A stretch of 64,000 nt of DNA. It comes from an uncultured Christensenellaceae bacterium. Lineage in GTDB: Bacteria > Bacillota > Clostridia > Christensenellales > UBA3700. This document shows positions 10,535 to 59,565 of the stretch, in pieces. The stretch spans positions 207,900 through 271,899 of the forward strand of contig OZ006985.1 in assembly GCA_963931165.1 (NCBI GenBank), given 5' to 3'. The first letter of the stretch is position 1, and each line of letters begins with the position of its first letter. A program made the position numbers and the translations under genes. The notes beneath the pieces are model-generated. The model saw only the letters and a list, made by a program, of their open reading frames with translations, ran no database searches and was not told where the DNA came from.

Positions 10535-12048
<1,514 letters not shown>

Positions 12049-54169: not shown

Positions 54170-54256
54170 ACATATTGTAATATATTTTAGCGGTCCGGCA
54201 AAATTTTTTGTCTATACTTCGTTTTTGACAACCGTTAGTGCTAAATTGCGGTTTTC

Positions 54257-54272
54257 GAGAAAAATTTTTCTC
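54257..54272. promoter_or_regulatory. 16-bp perfect palindrome upstream of the amt promoter
   Basis: GAGAAAAATTTTTCTC, 20 nt upstream of the -35 at 54292. Confidence 0.35.
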
Positions 54273-54291
54273 AAAATCGTCGTTCAATCGT

Positions 54292-54320
54292 TTGACAATC
54301 GCTTTTGCGAGGACTATACT
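54292..54320 (+). promoter_or_regulatory. amt-PII promoter
   Basis: TTGACA (54292-54297), 17 nt, TATACT (54315-54320). Confidence 0.5.
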
Positions 54321-54421
54321 CATTGCATAGACATAGGCGTCGCGGCAGCGGCGCCTTATATTTTTTCGGATCACAACGGAGTGTCCTTTGCGGCGCTCCG
54401 TAATTTTTTTGGAGGTGTGTT

Positions 54422-56230
54422 ATGGCAACGACACTTTTGGCGGCGGCACTACCCGACGTCTACGCAAACCTGACCGAAGGCGATTTTGTCTGGGTGCTTG
54501 TCGGCATCTGCCTCGTCTTCTTTATGCAGGCGGGCTTCGCGATGGTTGAAACGGGCTTCACCCGCGCAAAAAACGCAGGCAACATCATCATGAAAAACCT
54601 GCTCGACTTCTGCCTCGGTACGGTCGCGTTTCTCATCCTCGGCTACGGATTGATGCACGGCGGCGATCTGGGCGGAGTCATCGGCGATCCGAGCGGACTC
54701 GGCGCGATCTACTCGTCGTTCACGGACGGAGATATGCTCAAAGTTATGTTCCACCTCGTCTTCTGCGCAACGGCAGCGACCATCGTCTCCGGCGCGATGG
54801 CGGAACGTACGAACTTTTTGTCATATTGCGTGTACAGTTTTGTGATCTCGCTGATCGTCTACCCCGTTTCCGGCCACTGGATATGGGGCGGCGGCTGGCT
54901 CTCCGACCTCGGCTTCCACGACTTCGCCGGATCTACGGCGGTACACCTGGTCGGCGGCACCGCGGCACTCGTCGGCGCCGCGATCCTCGGTCCCCGCATC
55001 GGCAAATACGTCCCCAAACTCGGCGTCTATGACAAAAAAGGGCGTCCCGTCCTCGAAAGCAAGGCGATCCCGGGGCATTCGCTTACGTTGGGCGCGCTGG
55101 GCGTATTCATCCTCTGGTTCGGGTGGTACGGATTCAACGGCTCTTCCGCCTACGCGGTCAACGAATCGGTCGCGCGGGTGTTCATAACGACCACGGTGGC
55201 GCCGTCCGTTTCCACGATCACGGCAATGGCGATCACATGGATCAAATACGGCAAACCCGACATCTCGATGACGCTCAACGGATCTCTTGCCGGACTTGTC
55301 GCGGTCACCGCCGGATGCGACGTCGTTTCGGTGCCCGGCGCCGCGATCATCGGCGTCATCGCCGGTTTCGTAGTCGTCTACGGCATCGAATTCATAGACA
55401 AAAAACTTCATATCGACGACCCTGTCGGCGCGATCGGCGTCCATATGCTCTGCGGCGCGACAGGAACGCTGCTCGTCGGGATCTTCGATATGAACAAGGG
55501 CGTCGTCAGCGGTTTTATCTACAACGACGCATTGACCGCGGGCGAAGCGTTCTCCTACTTCGGAGTACAGATCCTCGGCGTCGCGGCTGTGGCGGCTTGG
55601 GTCGGCATCACGATGTCCGTGCTGTTCTCGGTAATGAAAAAGTACAAATTCCTTCGTGCCCGCAAAGAAGACGAGCTCGCGGGACTGGACGCTTCCGAAC
55701 ACGGACTTGCAAGCTCTTACGCCGACTTTATGCCCGTACCTTCGGTGATGCTTGCCGACAATATGTACACCGAACAGACCGCCTCTCCCGTGGCTTCCGA
55801 AACAACTCCCGCCAGCGGCGTCCCCGTCGAGCAAGCCGTACCCGTCGCCGTGACCTCGGCGCTCGGCGAACACAAATTCACCAAGATCTCGATCGTGACC
55901 CGCCCAGACAAATTCGAAGCGCTCAAAGCGGCTATGGATGCGATCGGGATCACCGGTATGACCGTCTCGCAAGTCAAGGGTTGCGGCACTCAGCGCGGTT
56001 CCGCCCAATACTACCGCGGTTCCAAGATCGACATCAAGCTCCTGCCCAAGATCAAACTCGAAACAGTCGTCACCAAGATCCCCGTCGAAACGGTCGTCGA
56101 CGCCGCCAAAAAGGCGCTTTACACCGGCAACTACGGCGACGGCAAGATCTTCGTCTACGACGTAGTCAACGTCATCCGTATCCGCACCGGAGAAGAGGGC
56201 TACTCCGCATTGCAGGACGAAGACGAGTGA
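54422..56230 (+). CDS. amt: ammonium transporter fused to a C-terminal P-II (GlnK/GlnB-like) domain
   Basis: An Amt core with about 11 TM helices (FMQAGFAMVETG, DFAGSTAVH, VHMLCGATG), a ~60-aa linker, then KISIVTRPDKFEALKAAMDAIGITGMTVSQVKGCGTQRG..GDGKIFVYDV (P-II fold motifs). Confidence 0.9.
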   Translation: MATTLLAAALPDVYANLTEGDFVWVLVGICLVFFMQAGFAMVETGFTRAKNAGNIIMKNLLDFCLGTVAFLILGYGLMHGGDLGGVIGDPSGLGAIYSSFTDGDMLKVMFHLVFCATAATIVSGAMAERTNFLSYCVYSFVISLIVYPVSGHWIWGGGWLSDLGFHDFAGSTAVHLVGGTAALVGAAILGPRIGKYVPKLGVYDKKGRPVLESKAIPGHSLTLGALGVFILWFGWYGFNGSSAYAVNESVARVFITTTVAPSVSTITAMAITWIKYGKPDISMTLNGSLAGLVAVTAGCDVVSVPGAAIIGVIAGFVVVYGIEFIDKKLHIDDPVGAIGVHMLCGATGTLLVGIFDMNKGVVSGFIYNDALTAGEAFSYFGVQILGVAAVAAWVGITMSVLFSVMKKYKFLRARKEDELAGLDASEHGLASSYADFMPVPSVMLADNMYTEQTASPVASETTPASGVPVEQAVPVAVTSALGEHKFTKISIVTRPDKFEALKAAMDAIGITGMTVSQVKGCGTQRGSAQYYRGSKIDIKLLPKIKLETVVTKIPVETVVDAAKKALYTGNYGDGKIFVYDVVNVIRIRTGEEGYSALQDEDE

Positions 56231-56565
56231 CCTTTCCGCGTAAAATACAACGGGCTCTTTCCGCAAGGAAAGGGCCCGTTTCGCTCTCGGTGAATTATAC
56301 TTTCAAGTGCAACACTTTAACGAAAAGAGTTCATACAAAAACTGCTATATAATGTAGTTAGCTCTAAATAAAAAACAGCACTTAACTTGACAATTCACTC
56401 TCTCTTTTCCCTCATTCGTATCGCCGCCCGAAGCCGTACCCGGCGCGTCTCCTCTCCGACCGCATTTTGGTCATACCGCGCCGGTCAAGTCCGCCGTTCC
56501 GCCAACTCGTCGACCGCCGCAAGCGCCGATCGACGCCACTTTTTGCAAAAACATCTCCAAAATGT

Positions 56566-56593
56566 TTGCATTTTTCTGAATTTGTGATAGAAT
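56566..56593 (+). promoter_or_regulatory. tRNA-Leu promoter
   Basis: TTGCAT (56566-56571), 16 nt, TGtGATAGAAT (-10 at 56588-56593), 14 nt before the tRNA 5' end. Confidence 0.5.
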
Positions 56594-56607: not shown

Positions 56608-56694
56608 GCGGACATGGCGGAATTGGCAGACGCGTAAGATTCAGGTTCTTATGGTCGAAAGGCTGTGCAGGTTCAAGTCCTGTTGTCCGCACCA
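56608..56694 (+). tRNA. tRNA-Leu (anticodon CAG)
   Basis: Hand-folded cloverleaf: acceptor GCGGACA/TGTCCGC, anticodon stem TAAGA/TCTTA with loop TTCAGGT, long variable arm, T-loop GGTTCAAGTCC, encoded CCA. Confidence 0.9.
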
Positions 56695-56978
56695 TGAAAT
56701 GACGAGGTCAAATTTGACCTCGTCATTTCAGTGAAATTCGCCTTATCGGCGAGTGAAATTCCGCTGCGCGGAGTGAAATGTTTGCGCGATGCGCAAACAT
56801 GAAATGTCGCTACGCGACGATGAGGCGAATTTTATTTCACGGACGCGCACAGCGCGTCTATTTCACGACCGCAACGCGGTCATTTCACGAGCGTGAACAC
56901 CGTGAACGCTCATTTCACCAAAAGTTTCGTTGAATATCTGTGGTTTTGAGCACAATAACTTTTCTCGTGCGAAAAATA
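56695..56978 (+). repeat. 284-bp inverted repeat, left copy (ATTTCAC-punctuated hairpin array plus tail)
   Basis: Reverse complement of 58776-59059 with 8 mismatches by hand alignment. Starts directly after the tRNA-Leu CCA. Confidence 0.85.
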
Positions 56979-57007
56979 TGAGGCTGTTTCACGGCCTCAT
57001 ATTTTTT
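56976..57007 (+). terminator. intrinsic terminator
   Basis: ATATGAGGC-tgtttcac-GGCCTCATAT followed by T6. Confidence 0.65.
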
Positions 57008-57037
57008 CGCTATTTCGGCTCGCTTCCTCCCCCGCCA

Positions 57038-57231
57038 ACGCTTCGGGCTATGGCTCGAGGCGATCCCAAAAAGGGAGCTTGGCACAAGTGCCGCTCCCTA
57101 TTTTGTTTCGCACCCTGCCTCGCCCTTCGCTCCGCTACAACATCGTGCCTCGAAATGGTGACGACTCACTCCGTTCGTCTATTCCGTCCTCGCGTCGCTC
57201 GTCCTTACGAATCCCTCGCCTTCCGCCAAGC
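57038..57231 (-). repeat. ~200-bp repeat family, copy B1 (inverted relative to B2/B3)
   Basis: The reverse complement shares blocks with 59060-59257: GTAAGGACGAGC, GCGAGGACGGAATAG, GCGGAGCG.AGGGCGAGGCAGGG, an A-run/T-run flanked hairpin, and GAGCC.T.GCCCGAAGCGT. A truncated extra unit sits at about 57008-57037. Confidence 0.6.
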
Positions 57232-57333
57232 GGTACCCAACTGAACCCGTAAATAATAAGGTTTGGGTGGGTGCTTTTATTTTCGCGCGGGGATTTGTAT
57301 AGTTCCCGATTTCCGTTGCGTAATTCAAAAATT

Positions 57334-58158
57334 TTAAGTGTCAAGTTCAGTGTTAGTAAGCTGTTGCTTTGAAGTTGCGAATTCATCCCAATCATTACTT
57401 AATTCATCTAAAGTATCATTTAGGCTTTTCGCAACATGTAACAGTCTTGTTTTCCAAAACATCACAATATCAATTATTTCGATTAGCAAGTAACTGATTA
57501 ACACAAGCCAAAATACAAGATTTAGTTTCACAAAAGCGTCAATAGTAGCTAACGATACAATTCCTAGAATTATGGAAATGGCACTTAATAAAATTCCGTT
57601 AATGTTTTTTTGAGTTTTTAACAATTGTCCATTATAATAGCTGTTGAATTGATAAAAATGTGCGGGCAACCCTTTTGTTGCAAAAGCAAATTTTATATCT
57701 GATTTATAGCGACACTTGTCTTTAAGTTTTCTATTTTTTAATAATGAGTAAAAGTATTCTTTCTCATTATTATCGTATTTTTTTAAACTATCATCTTCAT
57801 CGTATTGTTCACCACAAAACGACCTTATTAAAGCTAATTTTTGTATTATTGCTTTTTTTCTCTTAGCGATACAAAATTCTTGAAATTCATATAGCGAATC
57901 CTTGTTTTTTTCAAGCAGTAAAAATATTTTGTAGTTTAACCCTCTAATTATAATATGATTTTCAATCATACTATTCTCTATTTCTATTTCTGCATAAACC
58001 AGTATTATGAAGCATATAAAAAAACAAATAACAGCGAAACAATTGGATTTCGTAATCATCCCTTCAATTATAAATTGCCATAACATTAAAGCAACAGCAA
58101 TAAAGCAAAGTATACTCGTAAAAATGGGTTCTTTTATTCTATTAGTATTAGTCATCAT
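57334..58158 (-). CDS. hypothetical 4-TM membrane protein (extremely AT-rich gene)
   Basis: Two hydrophobic helices at each end (IFTSILCFIAVALMLWQFII, CFAVICFFICFIILVY; ILLSAISIILGIVSLATI, LVFWLVLISYLLIEIIDIVMFW) around a K/N/E-rich soluble core. No family recognised. Confidence 0.6.
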   Translation of the reverse strand: MMTNTNRIKEPIFTSILCFIAVALMLWQFIIEGMITKSNCFAVICFFICFIILVYAEIEIENSMIENHIIIRGLNYKIFLLLEKNKDSLYEFQEFCIAKRKKAIIQKLALIRSFCGEQYDEDDSLKKYDNNEKEYFYSLLKNRKLKDKCRYKSDIKFAFATKGLPAHFYQFNSYYNGQLLKTQKNINGILLSAISIILGIVSLATIDAFVKLNLVFWLVLISYLLIEIIDIVMFWKTRLLHVAKSLNDTLDELSNDWDEFATSKQQLTNTELDT

Positions 58159-58399
58159 TTGCTGCTCTTGTGTTTTTAATATCGGTTTGATGCTTTTGCC
58201 ACCAAAGAGGGACTCAAATTACGAATTTGCAAGCAAGTAGCATCCTTACTATAATATAATAACACAAAATCTAAATTGTCGCAATAGCGCACAGCGCCTT
58301 TTTGAAAAAATCTTAAAATTCGATTTACGTTATACTCTCTCCGGCGGACAACAGGAGAATATTATTCGAACAAGAATATGCCGAAATGCAGTGAAAGGA

Positions 58400-58747
58400 T
58401 TAAGGATTGACCTCGGCGGTGTTTATTGAAGCTATAAGCATTCTTCTGATTTTTCCGGCAATGTTTGTCAATTCCACTGCCGTATCATTGCTTGTTAATT
58501 CGGCTTGTTTGAACAATTCAAGCCAATATTCAGATTCATAGCACTCTTTGAGAGCAATCTTTAATTTTGATATAAAGTCTATCTTGCTATGAGCATAATT
58601 TGCCTCTCTCAAATTTGCGCCTATACTCGTTGCCGATCGTTCCAATTGGTTTCTTAATGATGAATGACCCTGTATCGTTTCGCACAATCTAATGATTTTG
58701 ATGGCAAAACTCATTGATAGATCTTTAAGCTCTGTTGTTTTTGTCAT
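58400..58747 (-). CDS. four-helix-bundle protein (23S rRNA intervening-sequence protein / Avd-like family)
   Basis: FAIKIIRLCE..LRNQLERSATSIGANLREANYAHSKIDFISKLKIALKECYESEYWLEL is the family signature. AAGGAG RBS. Confidence 0.75.
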   Translation of the reverse strand: MTKTTELKDLSMSFAIKIIRLCETIQGHSSLRNQLERSATSIGANLREANYAHSKIDFISKLKIALKECYESEYWLELFKQAELTSNDTAVELTNIAGKIRRMLIASINTAEVNP

Positions 58748-58775
58748 AATTTTCTCCTTAAGTCAATTATAGCAT

Positions 58776-59059
58776 TATTTTTCGCACGAGAAAAGTTATT
58801 GTGCTCAAAACCACAGATATTCAACGAATCTTTTGGTGAAATGAGCGTTCACGATGTTCACGCTCGTGAAATGACCGCATTGCGGTCGTGAAATTGACGC
58901 GCTGTGCGCGTCCGTGAAATAAAATTCGCCTCATCGTCGCGCAGCGACATTTCATGTTTGCGCACCGCGCAAACATTTCACTCCGCGCAGCGGAATTTCA
59001 CTCGCCGATAAGGCGAATTTCACTGAGATGACGAGGTCAAATTTGACCTCGTCATCTCA
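58776..59059 (-). repeat. 284-bp inverted repeat, right copy
   Basis: See 56695-56978. On the minus strand it starts directly after a tRNA-3'-end-like ...CCGGGTGCGCCA and runs into the promoter/RBS of the four-helix-bundle gene. Confidence 0.85.
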
Positions 59060-59257
59060 TGGCGCACCCGGCGGGACTTGTAAGGACGAGCTTTGCGAGG
59101 ACGGAATAGCGGAGTGTAACGACGCGTCACGATTTCGGTGCCCGACGGGGCAGCGGAGCGCAGGGCGAGGCAGGGGCTCGGCGCAAAAAAGCGACAGGGG
59201 GAACACTTCCCTAACCTGTCGCTTTTTGCGGCACGCTTGAGCCGATGCCCGAAGCGT
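59060..59257 (+). repeat. ~200-bp repeat family, copy B2, headed by tRNA-Arg 3'-end-like sequence
   Basis: Starts TGGCGCACCCGGCGGGACTTGTAAGG (compare the tRNA-Arg gene, TGGTGCACCCGGCGGGATTTGAACCC). Contains the hairpin GCAAAAAAGCGACAGG..CCTGTCGCTTTTTGC. Confidence 0.65.
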
Positions 59258-59488
59258 TGGCGCACCCGGCGGGACTTGTAAGGAGCGAGGCATCTTGCCA
59301 AGCGACGGAATAGCGAGCGCCGTTAGGATACGGCGAGGCACCGCCGTGCCGAGCCGCGCGAGCGTCACTCGGTCGGTATCCCGCCGGGCGCACCGTGACA
59401 AAAGCGAGCAAAAACGAAGCGGGCAAAAAGAAAAGAGAAGCCGCATGACTTCTCTTTTTTGCCCGCTGCCGATAGGCGAGCGTTGTCA
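59258..59488 (+). repeat. ~200-bp repeat family, copy B3, abutting tRNA-Arg
   Basis: Starts with the same 25-mer TGGCGCACCCGGCGGGACTTGTAAGG. Shares GACGGAATAGCG. Hairpin GGGCAAAAAGAAAAGAGAAG..CTTCTCTTTTTTGCCC. An inverted partial copy TCCCGCCGGGCGCACC lies at about 59379-59394. Confidence 0.6.
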
Positions 59489-59565
59489 TGGTGCACCCGG
59501 CGGGATTTGAACCCACAGCCTTCGCCGTCGGAGGGCGACGCTCTATCCAATTGCGCTACGGATGC
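59489..59565 (-). tRNA. tRNA-Arg (anticodon CCG)
   Basis: Minus strand reads GCATCCG..TCGCC-CTCCGAC-GGCGA..GTGGGTTCAAATCCCGC-CGGGTGC-ACCA. Hand-folded cloverleaf with encoded CCA. Confidence 0.88.

What the first reader, a model, noticed from the sequence alone, without database searches (positions are those of the whole stretch)
56695..59059. AT-rich cassette between tRNA-Leu and tRNA-Arg bracketed by 284-bp, ~97%-identical inverted repeats that each begin right after a (pseudo)tRNA CCA end
Positions 56695-56978 and 58776-59059 are reverse complements differing at 8 of 284 positions by my hand alignment. The left copy starts immediately after the tRNA-Leu CCA (..GTCCGCACCA|TGAAATGACGAGG). 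The right copy, read on the minus strand, starts immediately after a tRNA-Arg-3'-end-like sequence (..CCGGGTGCGCCA|TGAGATGACGAGG). Between the copies lie a GC-rich repeat (B1), then an extremely AT-rich two-gene cassette: a 4-TM protein (57334-58158) and a four-helix-bundle protein (58400-58747). No integrase, transposase or invertase is present in the window. The order of modules is circularly permuted: array-tail-B on the left versus B-array-tail on the right when read from each tRNA. That pattern is what one would expect from a circular or tandem intermediate, or from recombination between copies. Long near-identical inverted repeats should also allow flip-flop inversion of the 1.8-kb interior. 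The repeat could be a mobile or recombinogenic element targeting tRNA 3' ends, an insulator around foreign DNA, or part of a structured RNA co-transcribed with tRNAs.
Basis: seen in the sequence. Interest (0 to 1): 0.62.

Follow-up and report, generated by a model that had tools for sequence, protein, structure and literature searches.

The report
tRNA-trailer hairpin module (Gut-1) pair
The two 284-bp inverted repeats are copies of a known but unexplained hairpin-array motif (Rfam Gut-1); across gut bacteria it sits directly behind tRNA genes and usually leads into a small four-helix-bundle protein gene, and these two links do not appear in the papers I could search.

Summary
56695-56978 and 58776-59059 are reverse complements with 8 differences in 284. 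Each starts right after a tRNA CCA end: a real tRNA-Leu on the left and a 3' fragment of tRNA-Arg on the right.

Each arm is an extended form of the Rfam family Gut-1 (RF01706; 62.5 bits against a cut-off of 50). It consists of a long hairpin, about four GTGAAAT-plus-hairpin units, a centre, then about four hairpin-plus-ATTTCAC units.

In about 145 related loci this module follows tRNA genes of at least 20 anticodons, always in the same polarity. In one PF05635 subfamily it is followed by a promoter and the four-helix-bundle (4HB) gene.

The window therefore holds two convergent tRNA genes, each with a module. The right copy is the complete element. A sister strain has an intact tRNA-Arg joined directly to it. 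The left copy is a solo copy cut off 6 nt before the -10 box, and a related strain lacks it.

The interior is a mosaic: the 4HB gene, an unrelated 4-TM cassette carrying a tRNA-Ser 3' fragment, and small att-like 'B' units. No transposase or integrase was found. No inverted form was seen in six contigs.

Whether the array acts as RNA or as single-stranded DNA is unresolved. My leading guess is that it is a binding platform for the 4HB oligomer.

The parts
56608..56694 (+). tRNA-Leu(CAG); the left module starts at the base after its CCA
   Evidence: ARAGORN; Rfam tRNA 53.7 bits; promoter-like site 56565-56593
56695..56730 (+). H0: perfect 16-bp hairpin (TGAAATGACGAGGTC-loop-GACCTCGTCATTTCA). 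It occupies the place of the A-tract/T-tract terminator hairpin found after the tRNA in other loci.
   Evidence: (D2). The two window copies differ by a compensatory A-T to G-C change in this stem (columns 25 and 54). Junction table.
56729..56810 (+). tRNA-proximal half of the left module: GTGAAAT + hairpin units. Rfam Gut-1 hit above the gathering score.
   Evidence: RF01706, 62.5 bits against 50, E 6e-11
56811..56922 (+). Centre (GAGGCGAATTTTATTTCAC, a second partner for GAAAT + the 5' strand of hairpin 1), then the distal half: hairpin + ATTTCAC units. The distal half is Gut-1-like on the minus strand, 39 bits.
56923..56978 (+). Tail shared only by the two window copies. It is the upstream part of the 4HB promoter region and stops 6 nt before the -10 box. 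A third module copy in the same genome diverges at 56922.
   Evidence: L330; X1 record 4
56972..57008 (+). Native tRNA-Leu terminator-like hairpin (AAAAATATGAGGC..GCCTCATATTTTT). It is present in the empty-site allele too.
   Evidence: Read from the sequence. Joint 56694->56969 with a 23-nt filler in runs X29 and X30. The filler is absent from the window.
57038..57201 (+). B-like unit, an inverted relative of B1 (75% identity). It ends in the arm ..CGTCCTTA.
   Evidence: I2, I3
57202..57228 (+). 3' fragment of a tRNA-Ser-like gene (TCCTTA|CGAATCCCTCGCCTTCCGCCA), joined at the T-loop to the B arm
   Evidence: In L337 the homologous position is a real tRNA-Ser(GCT).
57229..58343 (-). Imported 4-TM cassette: own promoter (58256-58284), orphan ORF 57334-58158 (274 aa), terminator-like region
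   Evidence: 93% identical over 1138 nt to L337 from another species. Promoter scan. Only 5 protein clusters are known. No relative occurs in 200 module/4HB loci.
58400..58747 (-). Four-helix-bundle protein gene (PF05635 / TIGR02436), the recurrent partner of the module
   Evidence: PDB 2RLD, E 9e-30. Foldseek. Metatranscriptome contigs cover 58381-58626.
58766..58771 (-). -10 box (TGcTATAAT, extended -10) of the 4HB promoter, just outside the repeat
   Evidence: Read from the sequence. An equivalent TATAAT lies 20-35 nt before the start codon in related loci.
58776..59059 (-). Right module (complete element). Gut-1 hit 58944-59025 (-), 62.5 bits. Distal half 58812-58899 is Gut-1-like on the + strand, 36 bits.
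   Evidence: In sister strain L203 it follows an intact tRNA-Arg directly.
59060..59086 (-). tRNA-Arg 3' fragment no. 1 (att-like: TCCTTA|CAAGTCC|CGCCGGGTGCGCCA)
   Evidence: D1
59087..59488 (-). B1 (59087-59257), tRNA-Arg 3' fragment no. 2 (59258-59284) and B2 (59285-59488). This is a strain-specific 429-bp insertion between direct repeats of the tRNA-Arg 3' end.
   Evidence: Absent in L203. Back-joint 59492->59064.
59489..59565 (-). tRNA-Arg(CCG), the original anchor of the right module

Best explanation
What it is. Each 284-bp arm is a 'tRNA-trailer module', an extended, double form of the Rfam Gut-1 motif. It is a family of multi-copy repeats in gut Firmicutes and some Akkermansia. It sits immediately after the CCA and terminator hairpin of a tRNA gene, always in one polarity. 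From the tRNA outward the order is:
- a long hairpin;
- NGAAAT + hairpin 1;
- three GTGAAAT + hairpin units;
- a centre that can pair with GAAAT + the 5' strand of hairpin 1;
- three or four hairpin + ATTTCAC units.
In its complete form the last ATTTCAC abuts the -35 of a TGnTATAAT promoter that drives a small AT-rich PF05635 four-helix-bundle (4HB) gene.

How the window's layout arose. Two convergent tRNA genes each carry a module.
- The right copy is the complete element, originally joined directly to tRNA-Arg(CCG). It was later pushed away by a 429-bp insertion at the tRNA 3' end.
- The left copy is a recent partial copy of the right one, module plus 56-nt tail. It was installed behind tRNA-Leu, probably by recombination through the similar tRNA 3' ends on one side and an 11-nt microhomology (TGCGAAAAATA) on the other.
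- The inverted-repeat geometry is therefore a by-product, not the ends of a transposon or an invertible switch.

How it works (inferred). The array folds as a single strand, either RNA from read-through or single-stranded DNA. It presents 7-nt single-stranded motifs between C-G-closed GNA/GNNA hairpins as a multivalent binding platform. The most likely ligand is the oligomeric 4HB protein encoded next to it; its relatives 2RLD and DGR Avd are pentamers. Binding would control the adjacent promoter. Solo copies would be acted on in trans.

How it spreads (inferred). By recombination at tRNA 3' ends.

Sub-confidences: identity and family context 0.9; by-product origin of the inverted repeat 0.8; 4HB as the ligand 0.35; RNA versus single-stranded DNA undecided.
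For: Family membership:
- Gut-1 hits above gathering in both arms and in all 19 related loci tested, always on the tRNA-sense strand just after the tRNA.

Structure under selection:
- 364 distinct array hairpins have 2099 of 2151 Watson-Crick pairs.
- In 20 sequences, five hairpin-1 pairs show 2 to 11 double changes each and none is broken.
- None of the 8 differences between the two window copies breaks a stem, and two of them form a compensatory pair.
- The centre pairing covaries in 6 sequence classes: 67 of 92 modules, control 0 of 89.
- The 7-mer variant is the same in both halves of a module.

tRNA link:
- 20/50 against 1/149, p = 6e-13.
- A junction table with more than 20 anticodons.

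4HB link:
- It is the top recurring gene family near arrays, 7 of 64 loci; no other family recurred in a fixed position and orientation relative to the array.
- In the reverse direction, 62 of 67 loci of the 4HB subfamily have the two-halved 7-mer array upstream.
- The -35 abuts the last unit.

History of this locus:
- L203 has tRNA-Arg joined directly to the module.
- An empty-site allele exists at tRNA-Leu.
- A third genomic copy shares the module only up to the last ATTTCAC.

Ligand:
- 4HB relatives are oligomers that bind nucleic acid. 2RLD has 5 chains. Foldseek also reaches Avd in the DGR ribonucleoprotein, though weakly, E 0.3-1.4.
Against: - No binding, expression or strand data exist.
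- About 55 of 65 module loci from the genome scan have no 4HB gene within 3.5 kb, so the ligand may be a host factor.
- In most loci the array lies between a terminator-like hairpin and a promoter. That argues against strong transcription in the tRNA direction.
- G-T pairs (9) are no more frequent than A-C (20), which is unusual for a functional RNA.
- The spacing of the 7-mers varies (11-22 nt spacers), which argues against a simple double-stranded DNA operator.
- The microhomology route for the left copy rests on one empty-site allele seen only in metatranscriptome contigs of a related strain.
- The AlphaFold model of the 4HB protein is of low confidence (pLDDT 65).
Confidence: 0.45

Rival explanations
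1. Gut-1 is a free-standing or tRNA-co-transcribed structured non-coding RNA, as Rfam files it. It would work as RNA, for example as a sponge or regulator for a host RNA-binding protein that reads GUGAAAU between hairpins, or as a switch using the alternative hairpin-1 / centre pairing. The 4HB gene would merely ride on the same site.
For: - Weinberg et al. 2010 rated it 'Y' for RNA on covariation (PMC2864571).
- Covariation is strong.
- The mutually exclusive pairing covaries in 6 classes.
- Polarity relative to the tRNA is fixed.
- In the window, H0 has no T-tract, so read-through is plausible.
- A metatranscriptome contig covers 58858-59035 while the neighbouring genes have depth zero.
- Solo modules are followed by a second terminator.
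Against: - A canonical A-tract/T-tract terminator-like hairpin separates the tRNA from the array in about 40 loci.
- No promoter was found for the array.
- G-U pairs are about 0.4% of pairs and rarer than A-C.
- On the Rfam strand the loops are UNC/UNNC. The stable GNA/GNNA loops are on the opposite strand.
- The distal half is the reverse complement of the motif, so one transcript cannot present the same 7-mer in both halves.
Confidence: 0.3
2. The module is the arm of an attachment site. The repeated 7-mers would be arm-type binding sites for a tyrosine integrase or excisionase that recombines at tRNA 3' ends, and the modules would mark the ends of integrated elements.
For: - The locus is full of att-like junctions: tRNA-Arg fragments twice, a tRNA-Ser fragment, and a tRNA-Leu fragment in a variant strain. 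All are fused at the T-loop to the same arm ..CGTCCTTA.
- The 429-bp block is present or absent exactly at the 17-nt repeats.
- Small insertions between a tRNA and a tRNA-fragment-plus-module recur in L054, L155, L156, L185 and L191.
- Integrase ORFs lie just after modules in L069 and L110.
Against: - An integrase is near only 4 of about 145 loci, and those are 25-30% identical to each other. None is in the window.
- A distal direct repeat of the tRNA 3' end occurs in only 2 of 93 cases.
- Palindromic, covarying spacers are not a feature of arm-type sites.
- The B units recombine without any module inside them.
Confidence: 0.1
3. It is a REP/BIME-like repeat: hairpins with a conserved single-stranded flank, recognised on single-stranded DNA by a domesticated HUH (RAYT/IS200-type) enzyme encoded elsewhere, which multiplies them.
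For: - The design is a conserved flank plus a variable palindrome.
- Clusters occur in alternating orientation.
- The repeats are extragenic and multi-copy, and contigs break at them.
- Pairing is near-perfect Watson-Crick and symmetric between strands.
- C-G-closed GNA triloops are very stable in DNA (my own knowledge, not tested here).
Against: - No HUH gene was seen near any module.
- Stems differ from unit to unit inside one array, unlike REP families.
- The fixed position behind tRNAs and the fixed polarity are not REP properties.
Confidence: 0.08
4. It is a transposon or invertible cassette: the 284-bp copies would be terminal inverted repeats, or recombination sites that flip the 1.8-kb interior.
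For: - The geometry alone: long, near-identical inverted repeats around foreign, AT-rich genes.
- RecA could in principle invert the segment.
Against: - There is no transposase or invertase and no target-site duplication. The flanks are two different tRNA ends.
- The same module occurs singly behind tRNAs in dozens of genomes.
- The interior is a mosaic of independent pieces.
- Six contigs crossing an arm all show one orientation.
Confidence: 0.04

Closest known systems
Gut-1 RNA motif (Rfam RF01706; Weinberg et al. 2010, Genome Biol 11:R31)
   Same: Both arms score above the family's gathering cut-off. The architecture is the same: hairpins separated by GUGAAAU, with covarying stems. The habitat is gut metagenomes.
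   Different: - The published model covers only the tRNA-proximal half (77 nt).
- Here the unit is double, with a second inverted array, a covarying centre pairing, a leading long hairpin, and often a promoter and gene.
[quoted passage not shown]
- Here it is in chicken, ruminant and human gut genomes, and it is tied to tRNA genes and to PF05635.
23S rRNA intervening sequences that carry a PF05635 ORF (Leptospira-type IVS); PF05635 / TIGR02436 'four helix bundle protein'
   Same: The same protein family (E 4e-22 and 4e-26). Like an IVS, this is a small AT-rich gene attached to a stable-RNA gene through a strongly hairpinned segment, with no mobility gene of its own. Presence is sporadic and strain-variable.
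   Different: It sits after a tRNA gene, not inside 23S rRNA. It has its own promoter. The hairpin array with 7-mers is not known from IVSs; that is my recollection and was not tested here.
tRNA-gene integrative elements (att core = tRNA 3' end from the T-loop to CCA)
   Same: Direct repeats of the tRNA 3' end flank the 429-bp B block. Junctions lie at the T-loop. Presence or absence falls exactly at the repeats.
   Different: This applies to the B units and the 4-TM cassette, not to the module itself. The units are tiny (about 200 bp) and gene-less, and no integrase is in the window.
REP/BIME elements and their RAYT transposases
   Same: Extragenic multi-copy palindromes with a conserved short flank, clustered in both orientations.
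   Different: The stems vary within an array. The position behind tRNAs is fixed. No RAYT gene was seen.
DGR accessory protein Avd (PDB 4DWL; RT-Avd-RNA complex 8UB7)
   Same: Related four-helix-bundle fold. Avd is a pentamer that contacts structured RNA in a ribonucleoprotein.
   Different: Only a weak structural match (Foldseek E 0.3-1.4, 10-14% identity). There is no reverse transcriptase and no template or variable repeats here.

Membership tests
Rfam Gut-1 (RF01706) | Covariance-model score at or above the curated gathering score (50 bits) | tested here: met
   62.5 bits at 56729-56810(+) and at 58944-59025(-)
Rfam Gut-1 (RF01706) | Three hairpins with covarying stems, separated by conserved GUGAAAU | tested here: met
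Rfam Gut-1 (RF01706) | Expressed as a non-coding RNA | tested here: inconclusive
   One low-depth metatranscriptome contig covers the right module. A terminator-like hairpin lies upstream in most loci. G-U pairs are nearly absent. No stranded data were available.
PF05635 / TIGR02436 four-helix-bundle protein | HMM score above the curated cut-off | tested here: met
   78.8 bits against 33.8 (Pfam); 91.5 against 24 (NCBIfam). The RxxxSxxxNxxE motif reported for the family is present in the ORF translation as R37-S41-N45-E48, all invariant in the alignment.
PF05635 / TIGR02436 four-helix-bundle protein | Four-helix-bundle fold, related to solved family members | tested here: met
   PDB 2RLD, E 9e-30 by sequence. 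The model is all-helical with a top Foldseek hit to 2RLD, but pLDDT is only 65.
23S rRNA intervening sequence | Located inside a 23S rRNA gene helix and excised from the rRNA | tested here: not met
   The gene lies between tRNA-Arg and tRNA-Leu. The only rRNA in the window is the 16S at 10538-12047.
DNA transposon with terminal inverted repeats | Transposase gene, and a target-site duplication flanking the inverted repeats | tested here: not met
   No such ORF lies between or beside the repeats. The flanks are ..GCACCA and TGGCGCAC.., two different tRNA ends, not a duplication.
Invertible DNA segment | Both orientations present in a population; a site-specific invertase | tested here: inconclusive
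   There is one orientation in all six contigs that cross an arm, and no invertase was found. Read-level data were not available; Logan contigs break at the repeats.
Integron cassette array / attC | IntI integrase; attC sites of 57-141 nt with R''/L''/L'/R' boxes (GTTRRRY core) | tested here: not met
   No integrase. The hairpins are 11-20 nt with a GTGAAAT flank and no GTTRRRY cores.
tRNA-targeting integrative element (applies to the B units) | Direct repeats of the tRNA 3' end at both ends; presence/absence polymorphism at those repeats | tested here: met
   59060-59086, 59258-59284 and 59489-59515 (D1). L203 lacks the block.
tRNA-targeting integrative element (applies to the B units) | Integrase encoded by the element | tested here: not met
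   The B units are about 200 bp with no ORF, and the window has no integrase homologue.
REP/BIME | A genome-wide family of near-identical palindromes, plus a RAYT gene | tested here: inconclusive
   The repeats are multi-copy and break contigs. However, stems differ between units, and no HUH gene lies near the modules. Whole genomes were not available.

The most novel reading that the evidence does not exclude
The Gut-1 double array plus the PF05635 gene is a previously unrecognised class of small selfish element of stable-RNA genes, a tRNA-trailer counterpart of the 23S rRNA intervening sequences. In it an Avd-like pentamer binds a comb of hairpins and 7-mers made from its own flanking DNA or RNA. 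This complex would both regulate the gene and promote copying of the element behind other tRNA genes. That would give the first function for an orphan Rfam motif and for the large PF05635 family outside DGRs.
Probability: 0.2. Interest if true: 0.8.

Novelty: new variant of a known kind. Interest (0 to 1): 0.6.

Why it matters
Gut-1 has been in Rfam since 2010 with no context and no function. PF05635 'four helix bundle / 23S rRNA IVS' proteins are very widespread. Outside the DGR protein Avd, I found no function described for them in the literature I could search.

This locus and its relatives tie the two together and tie both to tRNA 3' ends:
- the position is fixed;
- the polarity is fixed;
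- a promoter abuts the array;
- the 7-mers covary between the two halves.

That turns two orphan features into one testable system: does the 4HB oligomer bind the array, and as RNA or as DNA?

The locus also documents a hotspot of recombination at tRNA 3' ends. Tiny gene-less att-bearing units and imported cassettes accumulate there, which bears on how accessory genes enter the small genomes of gut Firmicutes.

Practically, the module is a repeat that breaks metagenome assemblies next to tRNA genes.

Tried and rejected
1. Inversion. Logan contigs break at the repeats. Six contigs crossing an arm show one orientation only. No raw-read runs were available.

2. RNA evidence. Four run searches were made. 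The metatranscriptome contigs are unstranded and of low depth. The runs for the human-gut locus behaved like DNA.

3. A constant recombinase partner. Clustering all ORFs within 3.5 kb of 64 module loci gave tyrosine recombinases in only a few loci and none in the window.

4. Ladder model, in which GUGAAAU pairs with AUUUCAC to give stacked four-way junctions. Deviant 7-mers inside L025 and L168 are not compensated in their predicted partners (read). I rejected it as the main fold, although RNAfold uses some such pairs.

5. CCA-specific targeting. 52 of 52 module-linked tRNAs encode CCA, but so do 35 of 36 other tRNAs in the same loci. The test is uninformative.

6. Terminator hairpin as part of the element. 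Ordinary tRNAs in these genomes have the same A-tract/T-tract hairpin, so this is only partly diagnostic.

7. Phage origin. Only 4 of 119 pattern hits in viral contigs are true arrays.

8. 4-TM protein as a conserved partner of 4HB. It has no relative in 200 loci. Its homologues sit beside a tRNA-Ser or inside a restriction-modification/defence operon.

9. Distal att repeats that would bound a module-bearing island. Found in 2 of 93 cases.

10. Defence and phage family libraries for both proteins. Nothing significant.


Full report
**1. Observation**

The inverted repeat is real. The repeat finder reports arms 56674-56978 and 58776-59080, 305 nt, 95% complementary. Aligning the 284-nt core gives exactly 8 differences.

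- tRNA-Leu(CAG) is at 56608-56694 (+) and tRNA-Arg(CCG) at 59489-59565 (-).
- The left arm starts at the base after the tRNA-Leu CCA.
- The right arm, read on the minus strand, starts after a 17-nt copy of the tRNA-Arg 3' end.
- That fragment occurs twice (59060-59086 and 59258-59284) as direct repeats of the real tRNA end (D1).
- The interior is AT-rich, GC 0.25-0.37 against 0.55-0.65 in the flanks.
- It holds the two ORFs described.

The structure recurs in independent assemblies. A 1.8-Mb contig is 100% identical and appears to be the window's own genome. The interior has the same depth as the flanks in four DNA runs. It is not a misassembly.

**2. What the repeat is**

A scan against Rfam places both arms in the family Gut-1 (RF01706). 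The hits are 62.5 bits against a gathering score of 50, at 56729-56810(+) and 58944-59025(-). The distal half of each arm gives weaker Gut-1-like hits on the opposite strand.

Gut-1 was described in 2010 from 43 human-gut metagenome sequences. No context or function was given (PMC2864571). I found no later paper about it.

Read from the tRNA outward, each arm contains:
- a perfect 16-bp hairpin (H0);
- GTGAAAT-plus-hairpin units;
- a centre;
- hairpin-plus-ATTTCAC units;
- a 56-nt tail.

**3. The family in other genomes**

About 65 of them hold true arrays whose spacers are hairpins. They are mostly gut Clostridia MAGs (Oscillospiraceae, Acutalibacteraceae, Ruminococcaceae, Christensenellaceae), with a few Akkermansia and one Bacteroidaceae. 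Many lie at contig ends, which is expected of multi-copy repeats.

The hairpins are under selection:
- 364 distinct hairpin sequences give 2099 of 2151 Watson-Crick pairs.
- In an RNAalifold alignment of 20 loci, five pairs of hairpin 1 show 2 to 11 double changes each, and none is broken.
- Within the window, none of the 8 differences between the two copies breaks a stem. Two form a compensatory A-T to G-C pair in H0, four are in loops, one is at the outermost stem position and one is in the tail.

Two features go beyond the Rfam model.
- The centre carries an exact 9-nt second partner for 'AAAT + the 5' strand of hairpin 1'. This holds in 67 of 92 modules, in six different sequence classes. 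The same test on hairpin 2 gives 0 of 89. This is a conserved alternative or long-range pairing.
- The 7-mer variant is always the same in both halves of a module: GTGAAAT/ATTTCAC, ATGAAAT/ATTTCAT, TGAAATC/GATTTCA, GTGAAGT/ACTTCAC, GTGATAT/ATATCAC.

**4. Link to tRNA genes**

Among arrays that can be evaluated, 20 of 50 true arrays have a tRNA 3' end facing them within 150 nt. For chance matches to the same pattern the figure is 1 of 149 (Fisher p = 6e-13).

Polarity is fixed: the GTGAAAT half is always next to the tRNA. Rfam-level Gut-1 hits are on the tRNA-sense strand in all 19 loci tested.

The junction has the same form in about 40 distinct loci with more than 20 anticodons. After the tRNA's CCA come:
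- 0-2 nt;
- an A-tract, a stem-loop and a T-tract;
- C-A-A/G-C/T-G/T-AAAT;
- hairpin 1.

Two cautions apply. Ordinary tRNAs in these genomes have the same kind of terminator hairpin after CCA. Nearly all of them also encode CCA. Neither feature is diagnostic on its own.

Several modules that lack an intact tRNA are preceded by a tRNA 3' fragment: the window's right copy, L039, L054 and the second copy in L062.

**5. Link to the four-helix-bundle gene**

I clustered all ORFs within 3.5 kb of arrays in 64 loci. The top recurring family, in 7 loci, was the PF05635/TIGR02436 protein. It is 60-69% identical to the window's ORF 58400-58747(-). A few other families recurred in 3-5 loci, but none in a fixed position and orientation relative to the array.

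In six independent loci plus the window the order is the same and all in one direction: tRNA (or its 3' fragment), module, TGnTATAAT promoter, ribosome-binding site, 4HB gene.

The reverse test used a metagenome scan with an alignment of these proteins.
- It returned 398 or more relatives, of which I kept the best 80.
- Of 66 loci with enough upstream sequence, 42 have a same-strand tRNA 194-592 nt upstream of the start codon, mostly about 250.
- 62 of 67 loci have the two-halved 7-mer array between the tRNA and the gene.
- The -35 of the promoter abuts the last ATTTCAC.

The gene is AT-rich relative to hosts of 38-56% GC. It is covered by contigs in two metatranscriptomes in which the neighbouring 4-TM gene is not.

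Its closest solved relative is 2RLD, BT_0352, with five chains (E 9e-30). Foldseek also reaches Xcc0516 and, weakly, DGR Avd; the model itself is of low confidence (pLDDT 65).

The searchable literature gives no function for the family beyond Avd. It notes the family's scattered presence in rRNA IVSs and cas loci.

**6. History of this locus**

Sister-strain contig L203 has an intact tRNA-Arg joined directly to the module (..GGGTGCACCA|TGAGATGACGAGG..). After it come 4HB, 4-TM, the B-like unit, the left module, tRNA-Leu and amtB.

- So the canonical layout applies, and the 429-bp block 59064-59492 (B2, tRNA-Arg fragment, B1, tRNA-Arg fragment) is a later insertion between 17-nt direct repeats.
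- Metatranscriptome contigs also show a back-joint 59492->59064. That fits a tandem copy or a circle.

At tRNA-Leu, contigs from two chicken-gut runs join 56694 to 56969 through a 23-nt filler. This is an allele without the module. The filler is absent from the window.

- That allele shares TGCGAAAAATA with the promoter region of the right copy.
- The two tRNA 3' ends agree at 13 of 21 positions.
- A third module copy in the same genome shares sequence only up to the last ATTTCAC at 56922.
- So the extra 56-nt tail common to the left and right copies marks them as a recent pairwise duplicate.
- The left copy stops 6 nt before the -10 box and has no gene.

**7. The interior is a mosaic**

Window 58343->57208 is 93% identical over 1138 nt to a locus of another species, GCA_900761265.1. 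It comprises its own promoter, the orphan 4-TM ORF, a terminator-like region and the first bases of a tRNA end. In that species the cassette lies convergent to a real tRNA-Ser(GCT).

Hence 57202-57228 is a tRNA-Ser 3' fragment. It is fused at the T-loop to the same arm (..CGTCCTTA) that precedes both tRNA-Arg fragments. In a variant strain that arm precedes a tRNA-Leu fragment.

This pattern indicates site-specific recombination at tRNA T-loops and 3' ends by an enzyme not encoded in the window.

A 53%-identical homologue of the 4-TM protein lies inside a methyltransferase/TIR/ResIII/Mrr operon. The protein is not a regular partner of 4HB.

**8. Mechanism**

Shown:
- family membership;
- selection on the hairpins;
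- the fixed position and polarity behind tRNAs;
- the linkage to the 4HB promoter and gene;
- strain polymorphism;
- the separate origins of the interior pieces.

Inferred: the array folds as a single strand and is read by a protein that recognises the 7-mer together with the C-G-closed loops.
- 58% of loops are T..C on the GTGAAAT strand. On the ATTTCAC strand that is G..A, i.e. GNA/GNNA.
- The 7-mer changes in step in both halves of a module and differs between lineages. That points to a lineage-specific, element-encoded ligand more than to a universal host factor. The oligomeric 4HB protein is the obvious candidate.

Against this: most modules from the genome scan have no 4HB gene nearby.

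RNA versus single-stranded DNA is unresolved.
- For RNA: the expert Rfam call, the alternative pairing, and one low-depth transcript contig.
- Against RNA: the upstream terminator-like hairpin, the lack of a promoter, G-U pairs no commoner than A-C (9 against 20), and the inverted second half.

Simple double-stranded operator models fit poorly, because the spacing varies and the spacers are palindromes.

**9. Verdict**

- The idea of a recombinogenic unit tied to tRNA 3' ends is supported.
- The ideas of a bracketed, invertible or circularly permuted cassette are not supported.
- The repeat belongs to a known orphan motif.
- Its double architecture, its anchoring to tRNA genes and its partnership with PF05635 genes appear to be unreported.

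Noticed in passing
window 59060-59488 and 57038-57228: These are small gene-less 'B' units of about 170-200 bp. Each ends in ..CGTCCTTA fused at the T-loop to a tRNA 3' fragment (tRNA-Arg twice, tRNA-Ser once; tRNA-Leu in a variant strain). The 429-bp B2+B1 block is absent in sister strain L203. A back-joint 59492->59064 appears in metatranscriptome contigs, which fits a tandem copy or a circle. They look like miniature att-bearing integrative units or scars, mobilised by a recombinase encoded elsewhere.
   Followed up: partly
window 57208-58343: The 4-TM cassette is 93% identical in DNA to a locus beside a real tRNA-Ser(GCT) in a different species of lower GC (GCA_900761265.1, L337). That implies recent horizontal transfer. 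A 53%-identical homologue sits inside an N6-methyltransferase/TIR/ResIII/Mrr defence-type operon (L333-L335). The protein is an orphan with 5 clusters and no Pfam family.
   Followed up: partly
window 59036-59263: The B1 region has contig depth 30-51 in metatranscriptome run X30. That is higher than tRNA-Arg (12.6) and acpP (11.6) in the same run. It could be an abundant small RNA, or several similar loci collapsed together.
   Followed up: no
window 54171-56536: Strain contig L201 lacks the amtB-glnK fusion gene. This stretch is replaced by 176 nt, so glutamine synthetase III lies next to tRNA-Leu.
   Followed up: no
L330 3187-3417; X1 contig (record 4): A third module copy in the same genome, at genome depth, diverges from the window copies right after the last ATTTCAC. 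It is followed by a promoter and a roughly 37-aa ORF. Contig L330 joins it to tRNA-Leu, so L330 is either a chimeric assembly across the repeat or a real recombinant.
   Followed up: partly
L031 205-400 and 2944-3125; L062 4262-4470 and 4975-5185; L158: These are direct duplicates of the whole module, including the leading terminator hairpin. They bracket 4 genes, 1 gene, or nothing (tandem). This module-genes-module layout suggests that cargo is inserted by recombination between module copies.
   Followed up: partly
module centre, e.g. window 56811-56833; L031 283-300: There is a conserved alternative pairing that the Rfam model lacks. The centre repeats the 3' strand of hairpin 1 plus ATTT in 67 of 92 modules, in six covarying sequence classes.
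   Followed up: yes
L004, L008, L061, L079 (Akkermansia); L002 (Bacteroidaceae): Gut-1-type arrays also occur outside Firmicutes, mostly as single-direction arrays. In L008 the array starts 7 nt after a XerC/D-like recombinase gene.
   Followed up: no
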